Shown: one piece after another, positions 2,851 to 5,760 of the stretch
How positions within the stretch are numbered: position 1 is the first letter of the stretch
How the letters are laid out: the number at the start of each line of letters is the position of its first letter
UHGV virus genome: UHGV-0317022
Length of the DNA: 22,796 nt
From: a virus
Reading direction: 5' to 3' (one strand)
The notes under the pieces: model-generated
The model's input: the letters and a program-made list of their open reading frames with translations, nothing else
Databases searched by the model: none
What the model was told of the DNA's origin: nothing
Translations under genes and position numbers: made by a program

Positions 2851-2864
2851 GCAAAAAAGAAAAA

Positions 2865-2900
2865 CCGCAGACACGACGTATGCATGACGTGCTGCGGTTT
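2865..2900. terminator. Bidirectional intrinsic terminator between convergent tfa and GIY-YIG genes
   Basis: Imperfect hairpin CCGCAGaCACG...CGTGCTGCGG (2865-2897) followed by TTTATGCTTAT on the plus strand and preceded by an A-run (2853-2864), which is a U-run for the minus-strand transcript. Confidence 0.5.
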
Positions 2901-2919
2901 ATGCTTATCACTTAAAGAC

Positions 2920-3693
2920 TCAAAAATTAGGTGAGTAACGGACCGGGGACATAGCTCCTTTTTTTCTTAATTCATCTGGTATTTTTTTTCCAAGATAAAG
3001 ATTTGCTATTTCAGGTGGGGCTTCTCGACCTTCAAAACCATAGCGCGAACTTTGTGTTGCCTCAAAGTCAGGATCCTCGTCCCAGTATTTCAACGAAGGG
3101 AAATTTTCACGTGTTGATTTGAGCCATTTATCAGCAATGAAAACCCCTCGAACGATCCCCCTTACAGTAGCAAGAATGATTTCTGCTTGGCTGGCGCGAG
3201 AGACATTAATGCGCCAGCTAAATCGAACCGCATCATAAAGCTCTGAATCCTTTGCACTTCTGTTAACGGAAATCATTAATGCTTTATGATGAAATGTTAT
3301 GGTTTCGGGTTGATATGTTGCTATCAACTCTTTGACATGCGCGGCGCCGAATTCATTGCTGCCAGCACCATTCATGATATTCGTTAACCCAGGGTAGGCA
3401 TCAATAAGTGCAGCTTCAACTTCGTACGCCGTCTTTTCATCAGTCATTCCGTGTCGATGGATGACATGGATAACTTCAAGTCCTGCTAACCTTATTTCTC
3501 TAATTTGCTTTAGCTTGTTGCTCAGTAACTCGTCATCATCAGTCGCTGCCACTTCACCGCGCATATGGGCAAATACGCGGTTACCTTTGCCTTTCCCTAC
3601 ATAGAAGGTGCTTCCGTCCCTCGGATCAATCAATCGGTATACATACCAGCCAAGGTGTTCAATTACTCCAGAAGGAAACTCAGTAATATCCAT
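2920..3693 (-). CDS. GIY-YIG nuclease-domain protein (possible freestanding homing endonuclease or defense nuclease)
   Basis: N-terminal region [28 protein letters not shown] fits the GIY-(x10)-YIG motif with the following conserved Arg. The track ORF runs to 3744 but begins with a TTG; the first ATG (MDITEF...) is at 3693, which I take as the likely start. Confidence 0.7.
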
Positions 3694-3867
3694 TTTGCAA
3701 TATCTATGAATTATTTGTGAGACGTATATTAATGAACATTGCAAGGGCTCACAACCAGTAGTGTTGAGAAAACTATCGGGTAAATGAGGCTAATCCTTTG
3801 AATTTACATAGTAAAAAAGATACTTTTCCTCATAGTGTGAGCTAATTTTATGTTTCGTTTGATGATC

Positions 3868-3985
3868 GGACCGGTCTCAAAAACCGCAGGCACGTTGTAT
3901 GCAAGAACGTGCTGTGGCTGGCTGGTGAACTTTCGATAGTGCGAGTATTGAATGATTTCCAGCCGTTATCGATTTTACGTATTAA
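3868..3985. repeat. ~115-bp repeat element, copy A (hairpin plus conserved tail)
   Basis: AAACCGCAGgCACGttGTATGCAAGAACGTGCTGtGGcTGGCTGGTGAACTTtCGATAGtGCGAGTATTGAATGATTTcCAGCCGTTATcGATTTTACgTATT closely matches 5641-5760. The hairpin core is also related to the tfa terminator at 2865-2897. Confidence 0.6.
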
Positions 3986-4207
3986 TTAATGAACAAACCA
4001 CTCGTCAGCAGACTCCCAGGTATCTTTCAGAGTCTCCTGAACAAAAGCATTAGCAGAATCCTTATCTGCGGTGTAGGTAACAGGAAAATCATCGCTATGG
4101 TAGCTTTGACGCTCATCTCCATACCATAAAATATCAAGAGATTACGACTCATTTCCCCATGATTCTTCACCAACCAACAGTTCTATCAACATAAGATGTA
4201 AACTCAT
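3986..4207 (-). pseudogene. Small acidic ORF interrupted by an in-frame TAA (possible gene remnant)
   Basis: Minus-strand reading [75 protein letters not shown]-stop. I verified codon by codon that the internal TAA (4142-4144) is in the same frame as the downstream 52 codons. Confidence 0.3.
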
Positions 4208-4321
4208 AAACTAAGCAAGATAAAAAAATTAACAGAATTTTGTTGATTTCATGTCTGTGGAGTGTTAACTTAAAATGAGACCTGAAGTACTGAAGGTCTT
4301 TGACACACTGGAGAAGCAACT

Positions 4322-4681
4322 ATGTTAACGCCGTTTGGTAAGACAGTAAGAAAAATGCGCATAGACTTGGGGCTTACGCTTAAAAGCATGGCTGAGGCTA
4401 TGGGCATGACCTCGTCTTATCTTTCAGCGATCGAAACTGGTAAAAGGGCGGTCACTAAGCCCGTGCTTGATAGCATCATTAGCTATTTTAATGCGGATGA
4501 AAAACAAAAAGAAAAGCTTATCAGTGCAGCTCGTGACTCTCAGCAGTCAGTAGAGATCAGCTTGTCAGGTAAGAATGGCCACGCTCGTGAAGTCGCAATT
4601 GCGTTCGCTCGTAGTTTTGATGAGTTAAATGAAGAAGACTTCCGTAATTTACGACAGATTTTGAATCGAAAACAGCAGTAG
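4322..4681 (+). CDS. XRE-family helix-turn-helix transcriptional regulator
   Basis: 119 aa with the HTH signature LGLTLKSMAEAMGMTSSYLSAIETGKR. GGAGAAG lies upstream of the ATG, and the stop is 8 nt before the next gene. Confidence 0.8.
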   Translation: MLTPFGKTVRKMRIDLGLTLKSMAEAMGMTSSYLSAIETGKRAVTKPVLDSIISYFNADEKQKEKLISAARDSQQSVEISLSGKNGHAREVAIAFARSFDELNEEDFRNLRQILNRKQQ

Positions 4682-4689
4682 GAGGCGGC

Positions 4690-5211
4690 TTGAGCGGACA
4701 AGATTATCGTGTACCTCCGCAGAATCGTGAATCAATACGTTCTATCGTCAGATCTCTGCGGAGCGCATTTGGTATTACTGGGCTTAAATTCCCTGTAATG
4801 GAGGTAATTGAGTTCGCATTGCCTCAGTTGATCCCGGATTTTGAGTTCCACATTGGTGGTATGAAAGAAATGGGAGAGACGCATGGTCTTACATACCCAC
4901 AGGAACATTTATTGATTCTGCGCGAAGACATTTACGAAGGCGCTTTGAATGGGGTAGGGCGAGATAGGATGACTGCCGCGCATGAACTGGGTCATCTTCT
5001 TATGCACAGGAACATCGCATTTGCTCGTTCTGCCCCAGGGGTAAAAATCCGCCCTTTTGAGAGTAGTGAATGGCAAGCTAAATGTTTTAGTGGTGAGTTA
5101 TTAGTGCCAGCTATGCATGCCAGTATTTTAAAAGGTATGACGGCTGAGGATGTTGCTGAGGCATGCGGAGTTTCATTAGTGGCAGCGCGTTATCAGCTAG
5201 ACAAAATGTAA
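4690..5211 (+). CDS. ImmA/IrrE-family zinc metallopeptidase (HEXXH)
   Basis: 173 aa containing the AAHELGHLLMH (HExxH) motif. It is tightly coupled to the upstream HTH gene (AGGAGG, then a TTG start at 4690), the classic ImmR/ImmA-type pair. Confidence 0.8.
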   Translation: MSGQDYRVPPQNRESIRSIVRSLRSAFGITGLKFPVMEVIEFALPQLIPDFEFHIGGMKEMGETHGLTYPQEHLLILREDIYEGALNGVGRDRMTAAHELGHLLMHRNIAFARSAPGVKIRPFESSEWQAKCFSGELLVPAMHASILKGMTAEDVAEACGVSLVAARYQLDKM

Positions 5212-5364
5212 AAACCCCTTGCTTGGCGCCAACCAGTGCAAGGGGCTTTAGGTGATGAATCCAAGAGGCATCACCACCGTGAACAGCTTCGATAGACAGC
5301 CTGAAATTAACACCTTCAGGGAAGATGTTCAAGGGAAAAATCTCTCTTGGTAAGGAGGTGTTTT

Positions 5365-5469
5365 ATGAATGGGTTTGAAATCAATTGCTTCAAAAGCGGC
5401 GCCCAAAGGGTTCCGTTGGGTTTTCTGCCGTTACCGCAAGGTGCGTGGGAAATCAAAAAAAGTCCTTGA
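5365..5469 (+). CDS. Small ORF (34 aa) with a strong Shine-Dalgarno, function unknown
   Basis: AAGGAGG at 5352-5358, 6 nt before ATG 5365. Translation MNGFEINCFKSGAQRVPLGFLPLPQGAWEIKKSP; a strong terminator lies about 60 nt downstream. Too short to assign. Confidence 0.25.
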   Translation: MNGFEINCFKSGAQRVPLGFLPLPQGAWEIKKSP

Positions 5470-5530
5470 TGCTCATGATTACGGGTACGAGGCGTGGGCA
5501 TTTTTAGTGCGCTGCTAAGGGGTAGTATTT

Positions 5531-5556
5531 AAGGCACCTGCGGGTGCCTTTTTTGT
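5531..5556 (+). terminator. Rho-independent terminator
   Basis: AAGGCACC-tgcg-GGTGCCTT stem-loop immediately followed by TTTTTTG. Confidence 0.6.
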
Positions 5557-5640
5557 ATCCTCACCACCCGATTGGTGTTTTGCTGAGCCTGATAACTACC
5601 AATTTTTGTTATTACTATTCTACTATCGCTCAATCATGAT

Positions 5641-5760
5641 TGGCGGGAGTTGAAACCGCAGCCACGTCGTATGCAAGAACGTGCTGCGGTTGGCTGGTGA
5701 ACTTCCGATAGGGCGAGTATTGAATGATTTACAGCCGTTATTGATTTTACATATTTTTTG
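5641..5760. repeat. ~115-bp repeat element, copy B
   Basis: AAACCGCAGCCACGTCGTATGCAAGAACGTGCTGCGGTTGGCTGGTGAACTTCCGATAGGGCGAGTATTGAATGATTTACAGCCGTTATTGATTTTACATATT; direct repeat of 3868-3985 with a few substitutions. Confidence 0.6.

What the first reader, a model, noticed from the sequence alone, without database searches (positions are those of the whole stretch)
2861..5760. Family of ~115-bp hairpin-containing repeats framing accessory gene modules
Two long direct copies (3868-3985 and 5641-5760) share a hairpin, CCGCAG.CACG...CGTGCTG.GG, plus a ~70-bp conserved tail. The tfa terminator (2865-2897) has a related hairpin core. The copies sit at the boundaries of the GIY-YIG gene, the interrupted small ORF and the XRE/ImmA module, as would be expected if they are recombination joints or 3'-UTR/terminator modules through which accessory cassettes are exchanged.
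Basis: seen in the sequence. Interest (0 to 1): 0.45.

Follow-up and report, generated by a model that had tools for sequence, protein, structure and literature searches.

The report
Repeated prophage tfa–dinI terminator module
The ~100-bp repeats are copies of a two-hairpin spacer that normally lies between the tail-fibre-assembly gene and a convergent DinI-like gene at the right end of lambda-like prophages; nearly every E. coli genome has it, and it is repeated here at the boundaries of anti-phage defence cassettes.

Summary
Copies B (3879-3978) and C (5653-5750) are 91% identical over 103 nt. Copy A (2860-2897) keeps only the first hairpin.

The unit is not a free-standing repeat. It fills the gap between a left-hand gene (usually tfa) and a convergent DinI-family gene. 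Its parts are an A-run, hairpin H1, a long irregular hairpin SL2, and a GATTTTAC tail. Read on the minus strand it is the dinI 3'UTR plus terminator. Copy B still abuts a dinI pseudogene.

BLAST finds 17,759 places in 5,411 of 5,426 complete E. coli genomes. The unit also occurs in Citrobacter, Kluyvera and Pantoea. No Rfam family covers it, and it is not annotated in K-12.

Across 136 contexts, 39 left-flank and 18 right-flank classes are reassorted around it, so it acts as a mosaic joint.

In this window the cassettes between copies are defence genes: PD-T4-3, a CapH/CapP-like XRE/ImmA pair, and a PD-T7-1-like gene. Relatives carry a type II R-M system or Septu instead.

Three features go beyond a plain terminator: covarying stems, a nearly fixed SL2 arm and H1 loop, and opposite strand preferences of the two hairpins. 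An RNA function is plausible but untested.

The parts
2266..2850 (+). tail fibre assembly gene (tfa), the usual left neighbour of the unit
   Evidence: Pfam Caudo_TAP, E 4.6e-45. In other loci the Tfa stop codon lies 10-12 nt before H1.
2860..2897 (.). Copy A: A-run plus hairpin H1 only (stem-loop 2865-2897). It is the terminator shared by tfa (+) and the PD-T4-3 gene (-). On the minus strand it is followed by TTTTTCTTTTTT.
   Evidence: z -5.2 and -5.4. One mismatch from the tfa-linked H1 allele CCGCAGACACGACGTATGCAGGACGTGCTGCGG seen in L007, L017, L023 and L027. Homology to the full unit ends after CTGCGGTT.
2920..3693 (-). GIY-YIG nuclease gene = PD-T4-3 anti-phage defence system; the cassette between copies A and B
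   Evidence: PADLOC PD-T4-3, E 7.6e-140 over the full length; Pfam LEM-3_GIY-YIG.
3879..3978 (.). Copy B, a complete unit: A-run 3879-3883, H1 3884-3917, SL2 3920-3964 (loop GTGCGAG 3939-3945), tail GTTATCGATTTTAC 3965-3978
   Evidence: (129.7 bits). Identical in E. coli IPCEC31 (H1).
3986..4115 (-). dinI-like pseudogene remnant (C-terminal part ...[28 protein letters not shown], with frameshift and stops upstream). Stop codon at 3986-3988, 7 nt from the unit.
   Evidence: Translation. Pfam DinI 22.3 bits, just under the 24.2 cut-off because the protein is truncated. RefSeq annotates the identical stretch as 'damage-inducible protein DinI, frameshifted, incomplete'.
4322..5211 (+). XRE (4322-4681) and ImmA/IrrE (4690-5211) pair, between copies B and C
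   Evidence: Pfam HTH_31/HTH_3 and Peptidase_M78. PADLOC gives weak similarity to CapH (3.6e-10) and CapP (6e-11).
5653..5750 (.). Copy C, a complete unit without a dinI gene: H1 5656-5689, SL2 5692-5736 (one C>A mismatch in the outer stem), tail 5737-5750. Its left flank keeps ...ATGATTGGCGGGAGTTGA, which matches the 3' end of a + strand reading frame that ends just before H1 in other phage contigs.
   Evidence: (118 bits).
5751..5850 (.). A roughly 90-nt extension conserved to the right of 'copy-C-type' units, after which the cargo differs between phages. It may be a decayed DinI-family 3' end (minus-strand reading ...MEDRWEEA...).
   Evidence: Fourteen loci share it and then diverge after ...CTATGTGC. 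The decayed-dinI reading is inference.
5906..7899 (+). Cargo to the right of copy C: a 156-aa ORF (5906-6376, no family hit) and a 472-aa PD-T7-1-like defence gene (6481-7899)
   Evidence: PADLOC PD-T7-1, E 2.8e-69. No Pfam hit.

Best explanation
The repeat is the conserved intergenic module that separates two convergent genes at the right end of lambda-like prophages. The left gene is the last one of the tail-fibre region (usually tfa, sometimes a Pin-type invertase or a small membrane protein). The right gene is a DinI-family gene, which has LexA-box-like sequences upstream in the one intact copy I read.

The module holds two hairpins placed back to back. H1 followed by a T-run on the minus strand is the intrinsic terminator of the dinI transcript. 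Its A-run/T-run forms the left edge of the unit. SL2 is a long irregular helix that pairs much better on the plus strand, the tfa direction. It is followed by CCGATTTTAC, which forms the right edge just before the dinI stop codon. Each convergent transcript would therefore run through the whole ~100 nt, giving fully overlapping 3'UTRs.

The same ~100 bp is shared by many otherwise unrelated prophage arms, so recombination within or beside it swaps what lies on either side. In this window, three stacked junction remnants record such events. They are tfa-H1 | PD-T4-3 | H1-SL2-dinI' | XRE/ImmA | H1-SL2-extension | PD-T7-1-like cargo.

Shown: the anatomy, the association with dinI, the distribution, the reassortment of flanks, the covariation and the defence identity of the cassettes. 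Inferred: termination on both strands, homologous or illegitimate recombination as the swapping mechanism, and any RNA-level regulatory role.
For: Identity and position:
- The BLAST sample rows lie on or beside annotated DinI genes, with 17,759 places in 5,411 of 5,426 genomes. The unit is in 197 phage records.
- About 55-60 of 125 IMG/VR copies end at the stop codon of an intact 82-aa DinI ORF. That ORF matches Pfam DinI at 70.9 bits.
- LexA-box-like CTGT-N8-ACAG sequences lie upstream of the intact dinI in L005. I read these by eye in the sequence printed.
- Left neighbours are convergent ORFs that end 0-12 nt before H1. They include Tfa, invertase and a ~110-aa membrane protein, and Tfa is also the neighbour in Pantoea and Kluyvera.

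Edges: flanks of many kinds diverge at AAAAACCGCAG on the left and at GATTTTAC on the right.

Structure:
- 78.8% of cells pair, against 34-50% when partners are slid.
- 10 pairs show double changes; 25 such cells against 9.8 in shuffles (0 of 500 shuffles reach this).
- H1 stems vary between CCGCAG/CTGCGG, CCGCCG/CGGCGG and CTGCAG/CTGCAG.
- For SL2 pair 50-93 the counts are GC 39, AU 4, GU 2.

Strand: H1 has 38 G.U cells on the minus strand against 20 on the plus. SL2 has 109 on the plus against 17 on the minus. The + strand is the more stable in 86 of 96 unique units.

Recombination joint: 39 x 18 flank classes and 14 four-gamete combinations. The PD-T4-3 cassette recurs with other partners (L010, L029, L080), with breakpoints at H1.

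Defence cargo.
Against: - A plain terminator does not need a nearly fixed sequence, yet the SL2 3' arm and the H1 loop GTATGCAAG barely change. In a search that left the SL2 core unconstrained, the 3' arm TATTGAATGATTT changed in only 2 of 169 instances (this set overlaps the copies found earlier). They also hold across genera and next to DinI paralogs that are only ~30% identical.
- The cross-genus copies were found with an exact 19-nt pattern inside the core, so part of the apparent invariance is ascertainment.
- The + strand T-run after SL2 is short (4 T). It is broken in the Citrobacter and Kluyvera copies, which have the best + strand helix, so + strand termination is doubtful there.
- RNAalifold on the MAFFT alignment did not recover the helices, because bulge positions shift.
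- No expression data for the unit itself were available.
- Copy C has a weak minus-strand T-run (GGTTTCAAC).
- Neither B nor C has the dinI promoter any more, so the two copies here may be inert scars.
Confidence: 0.68

Rival explanations
1. The unit is mainly a regulatory RNA gene rather than a terminator. There are two sub-versions.
(a) A 3'UTR-derived small RNA, released from the SOS-induced dinI mRNA. The weakly paired minus-strand core AAAUCAUUCAAUACUCGCACUAUCG would be the seed and H1 plus U5 the Hfq-type terminator, as for Klebsiella DinR.
(b) A plus-strand structured RNA, antisense to the dinI 3'UTR and 3' coding end, that controls dinI in cis and other copies in trans.
This explanation is compatible with the best explanation rather than exclusive of it.
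For: - One SL2 arm, the SL2 loop and the H1 loop are nearly fixed while stems covary.
- The unit is kept, with sharp edges, in many orphans that have lost dinI, including K-12 Qin and the ykgJ-ecpE spacer.
- It follows two DinI paralogs that are only ~30% identical in protein.
- Precedent: DinR is processed from the dinI 3' end, is Hfq-dependent and represses ftsZ (PMC10907235).
- For (b): SL2 has a strong plus-strand bias in G.U pairs. The Hfq-CRAC peak EcOnc47 in O157 Sakai lies on the strand antisense to Sp15 dinI, 12-58 nt past the unit. Some left flanks carry a promoter-like TTTACA-17-TATTAA just before H1 (read by eye).
Against: - No transcript, processing site or target has been shown for this unit.
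- EcOnc47 was a low-ranked peak with no northern blot, and it lies outside the unit.
- No consensus promoter is conserved inside the unit on either strand.
- DinI paralogs of 50-80% identity in six other phages lack the unit altogether.
- The only pairing idea I could test was the minus-strand UUCAAUAC against dinI codons 2-4. It is not conserved across lineages and is no better than shuffled sequence.
- The invariance is partly an effect of how the copies were found.
Confidence: 0.3
2. The unit is a site-specific recombination site or a small mobile element. Candidates are an integron attC-like folded site, a MITE, or an IS200/IS605-type end, through which cassettes are inserted by a dedicated enzyme.
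For: It is a hairpin-rich ~100-bp unit at cassette boundaries, always in the same orientation. G.T-tolerant folding of one strand is also typical of folded single-strand sites. The ends AAAA(C/T)CG are imperfectly inverted, read from the sequences.
Against: - No integron-type integrase or HUH/Y1 transposase gene was identified next to the copies. The Pfam and PADLOC scans of the ORFs between 2266 and 7899 found none. The nearest recombinase is a tyrosine integrase at 8416-9630, followed by an int-alpA RNA, which belongs to a separate element.
- The right-end GTTACCG/GTTATTG does not fit the attC R' core GTTRRRY (consensus from my own knowledge).
- I saw no target-site duplications in the printed flanks, though I did not search for them systematically.
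- The unit is almost always in one genomic context, after a tail-fibre-region gene and before dinI or its remnants, not scattered.
- Breakpoints are not at one fixed nucleotide. They fall after H1 in copy A, inside H1 in L080, and between H1 and SL2 in L043.
- The inverted ends are explained by the two terminator T-runs.
Confidence: 0.04
3. The unit is a lambda sib/tI-like retroregulator. That would be an RNase III hairpin in the att-proximal arm which, in the circular phage, lies downstream of int and controls int mRNA decay.
For: The position fits: it is at the right end of the prophage close to attR, as in JLK-2012 and Sp15. It contains a long irregular helix suitable for RNase III.
Against: A dinI gene with its own promoter lies between att and the unit. 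The long helix forms on the strand opposite to int/dinI transcription. I did not compare the sequence with lambda sib. Lambda itself was not examined.
Confidence: 0.05
4. The unit encodes a small protein. A + strand ORF of the type VLRLAGELSIVRVLNDFQPLPILRVN runs through SL2, and PGAP calls a 99-nt 'capsid protein' pseudogene on the K-12 copy.
For: There is an open frame in the E. coli copies (ORF 5681-5839). PGAP annotates such a pseudogene.
Against: The frame starts inside H1 and I saw no ribosome-binding site. Flanking residues change non-conservatively in Citrobacter while the 24-nt core shows no synonymous-type variation. The variation follows base-pairing rather than codon positions. The PGAP feature itself is marked as having an internal stop.
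Confidence: 0.02

Closest known systems
[quoted passage not shown]
   Same: It is a conserved extra sequence between a DinI-family stop codon and the Rho-independent terminator. The host gene appears to be LexA-controlled here too (LexA-box-like sequences upstream of the intact prophage dinI in L005, read by eye). A small-RNA role is plausible.
   Different: DinR belongs to the chromosomal dinI and is described as Klebsiella-specific. The present unit is prophage-borne, is absent from several DinI paralogs, has its best helix on the opposite strand, and has no shown transcript, processing or target.
Bidirectional intrinsic terminators and overlapping 3'UTRs of convergent genes
   Same: A GC-rich hairpin is flanked by an A-run and a T-run between two convergent stop codons. 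H1 folds on both strands.
   Different: Here two hairpins with opposite strand preference are placed so that each transcript must cross the other's hairpin, giving about 100 nt of overlap. Loop and arm sequences are far more conserved than termination requires.
Moron and module boundaries of lambdoid phages, i.e. conserved boundary sequences at mosaic junctions (recalled from the literature on phage mosaicism; not re-read here)
   Same: A short conserved non-coding stretch is shared by otherwise unrelated modules. Flanks are reassorted across it, and accessory genes are bracketed by terminators.
   Different: This is a specific, very widespread ~100-bp unit with RNA-type covariation, not just any short patch of homology.
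Defence hotspots of P2-like and P4-like prophages (Rousset et al. 2022; Vassallo et al. 2022, PMC9519451)
   Same: A fixed prophage position between conserved landmarks carries interchangeable anti-phage systems. Here these are PD-T4-3, PD-T7-1-like, a type II R-M system and Septu.
   Different: The location is the right arm of lambda-like prophages, between the tail-fibre genes and attR. The landmark is a non-coding unit, with or without dinI, rather than two core genes. I found no paper describing this hotspot or this landmark.
Integron attC sites
   Same: Hairpin-forming repeats of about 60-120 bp at cassette ends, with folding of one strand that tolerates mismatches.
   Different: No IntI integrase, no R'/R'' core sites, no fixed crossover point, and a single native context.

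Membership tests
Rho-independent (intrinsic) terminator | GC-rich stem-loop | tested here: met
   H1 has 11-12 bp with a one-base bulge. z-scores are -5.2 and -5.4 for copy A on the two strands. The stem covaries across 47 sequences.
Rho-independent (intrinsic) terminator | U-tract directly after the stem on the transcribed strand | tested here: met
   Minus strand (dinI direction): TTTTTCTTTTTT after A, TTTTT after B, and only TTT in C. The same A-run is seen in most copies elsewhere. On the plus strand H1 is followed by TT only.
Rho-independent (intrinsic) terminator | Second, plus-strand terminator formed by SL2 plus a U-tract | tested here: inconclusive
   In E. coli copies the extended SL2 stem (CGG...CCG) is followed by AUUUUAC. 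The tract has only 4 U and is broken (AUUGUAC) in Citrobacter and Kluyvera. The simple terminator scan does not call it.
Rho-independent (intrinsic) terminator | Measured termination of transcription | not testable with these tools
   Needs Term-seq or reporter assays.
[quoted passage not shown] | Lies between the stop codon of a dinI-family gene and its terminator | tested here: met
   The unit begins 7-10 nt after the stop of the 82-aa DinI, and 62 nt after the stop of the MsgA-like paralog.
[quoted passage not shown] | Sequence homology to DinR | not tested
   The DinR sequence appears only in figures and was not retrievable. The authors call the stretch Klebsiella-specific.
[quoted passage not shown] | Stable processed RNA bound by Hfq | not testable with these tools
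   The only lead is EcOnc47, an Hfq-CRAC peak on the opposite strand just outside the unit.
[quoted passage not shown] | Conserved seed that pairs with a target mRNA | tested here: inconclusive
   A nearly fixed 24-nt core exists. The one candidate pairing tested, with the dinI start region, is not conserved and is not better than shuffles. No genome-wide target search was possible.
Any Rfam 15 family | Covariance-model hit at or near the gathering score | tested here: not met
   No hit on the unit at the gathering threshold in the window or in seven other loci. At E<=10 the only hits are 15-23 bit partial matches of H1 to CssrB, whose gathering score is 76.
DinI family protein (Pfam PF06183), for the 'interrupted small ORF' next to copy B | Profile match above the curated cut-off and an intact ORF | tested here: not met
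   The remnant scores 22.3 bits against a 24.2 cut-off, matches only profile positions 44-63, and has stops upstream. It is a pseudogene of the family. Intact relatives score 70.9 and 76.3 bits.
Integron attC / mobile hairpin element | Associated IntI integrase or transposase, conserved core sites (GTTRRRY), fixed crossover, target duplications | tested here: not met
   No such gene was identified next to the copies in the window. The Pfam and PADLOC scans of the ORFs between 2266 and 7899 found none, and the only recombinase is the tyrosine integrase at 8416-9630. The right end GTTACCG/GTTATTG does not fit the core. Breakpoints vary. Duplications were looked for only by eye.
Prophage defence hotspot | Fixed position between conserved landmarks with interchangeable known defence systems | tested here: met
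   PD-T4-3 and PD-T7-1-like genes in the window. At the same position in related contigs, L080 carries type II R-M genes and L103 carries Septu PtuA/PtuB; the other cargo ORFs had no family hit. The sample is small, about ten loci.
lambda sib/tI retroregulator | RNase III hairpin on the int-strand transcript just beyond att | tested here: inconclusive
   The position near attR fits. However, the long helix is favoured on the other strand, and dinI lies between att and the unit.

The most novel reading that the evidence does not exclude
The unit is an undescribed, strand-paired RNA element found in nearly all E. coli, at a median of three copies per genome. Its minus-strand form is released from SOS-induced prophage dinI mRNAs. 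Its plus-strand form (H1 plus the long SL2 helix) comes from the tail-fibre side or from a small promoter of its own. The two forms, and the orphan copies in Qin, Rac and the ykgJ-ecpE spacer, would pair with each other or with host mRNAs. That would couple DNA-damage signalling, prophage late expression and cross-talk between resident prophages. At the same time the unit would mark the entry point of a defence-gene hotspot.
Probability: 0.22. Interest if true: 0.65.

Novelty: new member of a known kind. Interest (0 to 1): 0.45.

Why it matters
First, it gives a simple sequence landmark. The ~100-bp unit, alone or with tfa and dinI, marks a defence and accessory-gene hotspot in the right arm of lambda-like prophages. 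I did not find this hotspot described in the papers I could search. Scanning for genes bracketed by copies or remnants of the unit should yield new candidate anti-phage systems; several cargo ORFs seen here have no family hit.

Second, the unit is one of the most widespread unannotated conserved non-coding sequences in E. coli. It occurs at 17,759 places in 5,411 of 5,426 complete genomes, including three copies in K-12. Its covarying stems and nearly fixed loop and arm sequences are more than a terminator needs. With DinR as a precedent, it is a ready candidate for an SOS-linked prophage RNA.

Third, it explains why PGAP places spurious 'capsid protein' pseudogenes and truncated DinI calls at these sites.

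Tried and rejected
- Rfam, at gathering and E<=10 thresholds, on the window and seven other loci: nothing on the unit.
- Literal search of the core sequence in 8 million papers: no hit.
- Candidate known sRNAs were checked and excluded by position. svsR lies at the cI 3' end. AgvB, AsxR and EcOnc01-03 lie downstream of PR' morons. EcOnc42 lies next to stx1. EcOnc22 lies between the J and I tail genes. Only EcOnc47 lies next to a unit, on the antisense strand.
- The DinR sequence could not be retrieved from the text or supplements.
- dinI autoregulation by pairing of the minus-strand core with dinI codons 2-4: an 8-nt match exists in E. coli prophage dinI, and holds through G.U pairs in the MRVEI variant. 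It is lost in the Pantoea and MsgA-like genes, and duplex energies are not better than shuffles. Dropped.
- 'General feature of DinI genes': rejected, because six phage DinI paralogs of 50-80% identity have unrelated 3' regions and no model hit.
- Small-protein reading of the + strand ORF: rejected on the substitution pattern.
- The fourth candidate copy at 16817: chance.
- RNAalifold on the MAFFT alignment failed to recover the helices because bulge positions shift. I used explicit pair counting instead.
- My first regular-expression classification of flanks was faulty and was replaced by k-mer clustering.

Full report
**1. Observation**

The two long copies are real. Positions 3881-3983 and 5653-5755 are 91% identical over 103 nt without gaps. 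The third copy (2860-2897) shares only an A-run and the first hairpin, at 82-86% identity over 28 nt.

I later built a covariance model from 47 non-identical copies found elsewhere. It finds exactly these three places in the window, all on the + strand, at 129.7, 118 and 25.7 bits. A 28-nt look-alike at 16817 has no hairpin and no model hit, so I treat it as chance.

Both long copies fold significantly better than shuffled sequence. Copy B gives -35.4 kcal/mol on the + strand (z -4.0) and -25.7 on the - strand (z -2.6).

**2. Anatomy**

Read directly from the sequence, each full unit has four parts:
- an A-run;
- hairpin H1 (CCGCAG.CACGT-loop-ACGTGCTGCGG; 3884-3917 and 5656-5689);
- after a 2-nt linker, a long irregular hairpin SL2 (GGCTGG-TGAAC-TTCGATA-[GTGCGAG]-TATTGAA-TGATTT-CCAGCC; 3920-3964 and 5692-5736);
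- the tail GTTAYYGATTTTAC.

Copy A stops right after H1 (...CTGCGGTT | TATGCTT...).

**3. What it is by position**

On the minus strand, copy B is followed 7 nt upstream by the stop codon of a broken DinI-like reading frame...[28 protein letters not shown]. This frame scores 22.3 bits against Pfam DinI. RefSeq annotates the identical stretch in strain IPCEC31 as a frameshifted, incomplete DinI.

BLAST of the unit gives 17,759 places in 5,411 of 5,426 complete E. coli genomes, with a median of 3 and a maximum of 10 per genome. Many sample rows are under or beside 'DinI-like family protein' features. The unit also occurs in 197 phage records, mostly Stx and other lambdoid phages.

In 125 copies pulled from IMG/VR by an exact pattern, about 55-60 end at the stop codon of an intact 82-aa DinI ORF. 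That ORF scores 70.9 bits against Pfam DinI. In L005, the one intact copy I read in full, LexA-box-like CTGT-N8-ACAG sequences lie in front of the gene (sequence printed, read by eye).

On the other side, the neighbour is a convergent ORF whose stop lies 0-12 nt before H1. It is most often Tfa (...[13 protein letters not shown]). It can also be a Pin-type invertase, a ~110-aa membrane protein or others.

So the native setting is tfa -> H1 SL2 <- dinI, at the right end of lambda-like prophages, close to attR. On the minus strand, H1 plus TTTTT is a textbook intrinsic terminator for dinI.

**4. Orphans and K-12**

About half of the copies have lost dinI. At least five unrelated right flanks, plus several decayed dinI remnants, all diverge at ...GATTTTAC.

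K-12 has three copies:
- at the right end of Qin, between ynfT and ydfJ' (1632463-1632569);
- in the ykgJ-ecpE spacer, with a dinI remnant, where PGAP places a 99-nt 'capsid protein' pseudogene;
- a degenerate copy in Rac, between ynaM and ttcC (39.7 bits).

None is annotated as ncRNA in NC_000913.3. Copy C in the window is of an orphan type. In this type the unit is followed by a further ~90 conserved nt and then by variable cargo. Fourteen loci share this layout.

**5. Range and link to DinI**

A scan of one genome per species finds the unit in Escherichia/Shigella, several Citrobacter species, Kluyvera and Pantoea.
- In Pantoea it follows a DinI that is 70% identical to the E. coli prophage protein.
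- In Citrobacter and Kluyvera it lies 62 nt after an MsgA-like DinI-family gene. That gene is only ~30% identical in protein to the E. coli one, and both proteins match Pfam DinI.

The unit is not a general DinI feature, however. Six phage DinI paralogs of 50-80% identity have unrelated 3' regions and no model hit. These are 1720a-02, PhiR12_2, JLK-2012, phiNP and two Klebsiella phages.

One caveat applies here. The cross-genus copies were found with an exact 19-nt pattern inside SL2, so the 'invariant core' is partly built in. I ran a second scan that fixed only the outer stems. It still showed the 3' arm TATTGAATGATTT changed in only 2 of 169 instances, while the 5' arm and the loop varied. 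That sample overlaps the copies found by the first pattern.

**6. Structure and strand**

On an alignment of 47 distinct units, my two-helix structure gives:
- 78.8% of cells paired, against 34-50% when partners are slid;
- 10 pairs with changes on both sides;
- 25 doubly changed cells, against 9.8 in shuffles (0 of 500 shuffles reach this).

H1 stems switch between CCGCAG/CTGCGG, CCGCCG/CGGCGG, CTGCAG/CTGCAG and others, while the loop GTATGCAAG stays. In SL2, pair 50-93 has the counts GC 39, AU 4 and GU 2. Pair 55-88 is mismatched in 37 of 47 sequences and is C-G in 7; inspection of the alignment shows T.T in the E. coli copies and C-G in the Citrobacter-type copies.

The two hairpins prefer opposite strands. 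H1 has 38 G.U cells on the minus strand against 20 on the plus. SL2 has 109 on the plus strand against 17 on the minus. The plus strand is the more stable in 86 of 96 unique units. In Citrobacter and Kluyvera, SL2 is 18-19 consecutive pairs on the plus strand only, at about -30 against -15 kcal/mol.

In E. coli copies the extended SL2 stem is followed by AUUUUAC, which coincides with the right edge of the unit. This mirrors H1 plus U5 at the left edge on the other strand. My reading is therefore two back-to-back, strand-specific 3' structures. Each convergent transcript crosses the whole unit, so the 3'UTRs overlap by ~100 nt.

Termination on the plus strand is doubtful, because the U-tract is short and is broken in Citrobacter.

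**7. Recombination joint and defence cargo**

Clustering the 78 nt to the left and the 80 nt to the right of 136 distinct contexts gives 39 left and 18 right classes. Among the ten commonest of each there are 14 four-gamete combinations. Left and right arms have therefore been reassorted across the unit many times.

Relatives of this very locus show the same:
- the PD-T4-3 cassette recurs in L010, L029 and L080 with other partners;
- in L080 the window's dinI'-XRE-ImmA block is replaced by another cassette, and only the first 35 nt of the copy-B query remain at the joint, that is the left flank, the A-run and the 5' half of hairpin B.

The cassettes are anti-phage defence genes:
- 2920-3693(-) is PD-T4-3 (E 7.6e-140);
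- 6481-7899 is PD-T7-1-like (E 2.8e-69);
- the XRE/ImmA pair weakly resembles CapH/CapP;
- the L080 replacement is a type II methylase/endonuclease pair (E 4e-230 and 2e-234);
- L103 carries Septu PtuA/PtuB next to a copy-C-type unit;
- five other cargo ORFs have no family hit.

The window thus reads: tfa - H1(A) | PD-T4-3 | H1-SL2(B) - dinI' | XRE-ImmA-orf49-terminator | H1-SL2(C)-extension | orf156 - PD-T7-1-like. This is three stacked remnants of the same junction. The swapping mechanism (homologous exchange in the shared ~100 bp, plus illegitimate events at its hairpins) is inferred, not shown.

**8. Is it also an RNA gene?**

The nearly fixed arm and loops, the retention in orphans and the association with two distant DinI paralogs go beyond what a terminator needs.

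[quoted passage not shown] I could not retrieve its sequence.

In O157 Sakai, the Hfq-CRAC peak EcOnc47 (2896476-2896522, minus strand; PMC4104026 Table S2) is antisense to the Sp15 dinI 3' end. It lies 12-58 nt beyond the unit (2896534-2896640) on the strand where SL2 folds best. It was not validated by northern blot.

No Rfam family matches the unit. No paper I could search describes the element or this hotspot. One concrete pairing idea, the core against the dinI start region, failed. I therefore keep 'regulatory RNA' as a live but unproven layer on top of the structural explanation.

**9. Verdict**

It is, however, the native tfa|dinI spacer of lambdoid prophages and the 3' end of one gene family, not a dispersed repeat.

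It is a new, very widespread member of a known kind. Its practical value is as a landmark of a prophage defence hotspot, and it has a moderate chance of being an uncharacterised RNA element.

Noticed in passing
window 2920-3693 (-), 6481-7899 (+), 5906-6376 (+): The accessory genes framed by the repeats are anti-phage defence genes: PD-T4-3 (GIY-YIG, E 7.6e-140) and a PD-T7-1-like protein (E 2.8e-69). The 156-aa ORF between copy C and the PD-T7-1-like gene has no Pfam or PADLOC hit. It travels with that gene in L080, so it may be a second component of the system.
   Followed up: partly
window 4322-5211 (+) and 5369-5550: An XRE/ImmA (Peptidase_M78) pair with weak similarity to the CBASS regulators CapH/CapP. 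It is followed by a 49-aa ORF and a clean terminator (5531-5550). No effector gene is obviously attached, so it is unclear what the pair regulates here.
   Followed up: no
window 2609-2807 (+): An Rfam IS009 hit (225.7 bits) lies entirely inside the tfa coding sequence. The same hit occurs in K-12 tfaQ (L157). This 'sRNA family' looks like a conserved piece of the tail-fibre-assembly gene.
   Followed up: partly
window 8416-9742 (+): A tyrosine integrase gene (404 aa) is followed by an int-alpA RNA (Rfam RF02996, 45.5 bits). From memory this arrangement is typical of P4-like elements. A second integrative element appears to begin right after the prophage's defence arm. No tRNA gene is found in the window.
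   Followed up: no
window 10586-10694: Three copies of TTACCATCACCCTTAGGGTA, each containing a short palindrome. Two are in a 33-bp tandem (88% identical). This is an iteron- or operator-like array inside the second element.
   Followed up: no
window 16278-16613: GGTAGACNGTTGGTAGACAG occurs three times (90% identity) within 340 bp, in an AT-rich stretch with inverted repeats (16327-16499). It could be a binding-site array or an origin.
   Followed up: no
Sakai genome L246 1477-1523 (NC_002695.2 2896476-2896522, minus strand): The published Hfq-CRAC peak EcOnc47 is antisense to the 3' end of Sp15 dinI, just beyond a copy of the unit. On that strand a possible hairpin followed by UUUU, GGCCAUCGUUGCUGGUGGCUUUUAC, lies about 50-70 nt further on, inside the dinI coding sequence.
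   Followed up: partly
L003 3006-3104 (K-12 ykgJ-ecpE spacer; F' plasmid of NEB Turbo): PGAP annotates a 99-nt 'capsid protein' pseudogene exactly on the unit. Other genomes carry 'nucleocapsid protein' calls there. These are probably annotation artefacts caused by this repeat.
   Followed up: partly
L132 6265-6382: In Citrobacter portucalensis the MsgA-like dinI gene plus unit lies about 3 kb from the FnrS sRNA gene. From memory this corresponds to the chromosomal neighbourhood where Rac is integrated in E. coli K-12.
   Followed up: no
window 5751-5850 and 13 other loci: The ~90-nt extension to the right of copy-C-type units is conserved across at least six different cargos. It contains a variable hairpin (GAGAGGAT...ATCCTCC) in which G.U pairs appear to favour the + strand. 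It could be a decayed dinI 3' end or a cargo promoter/leader.
   Followed up: partly
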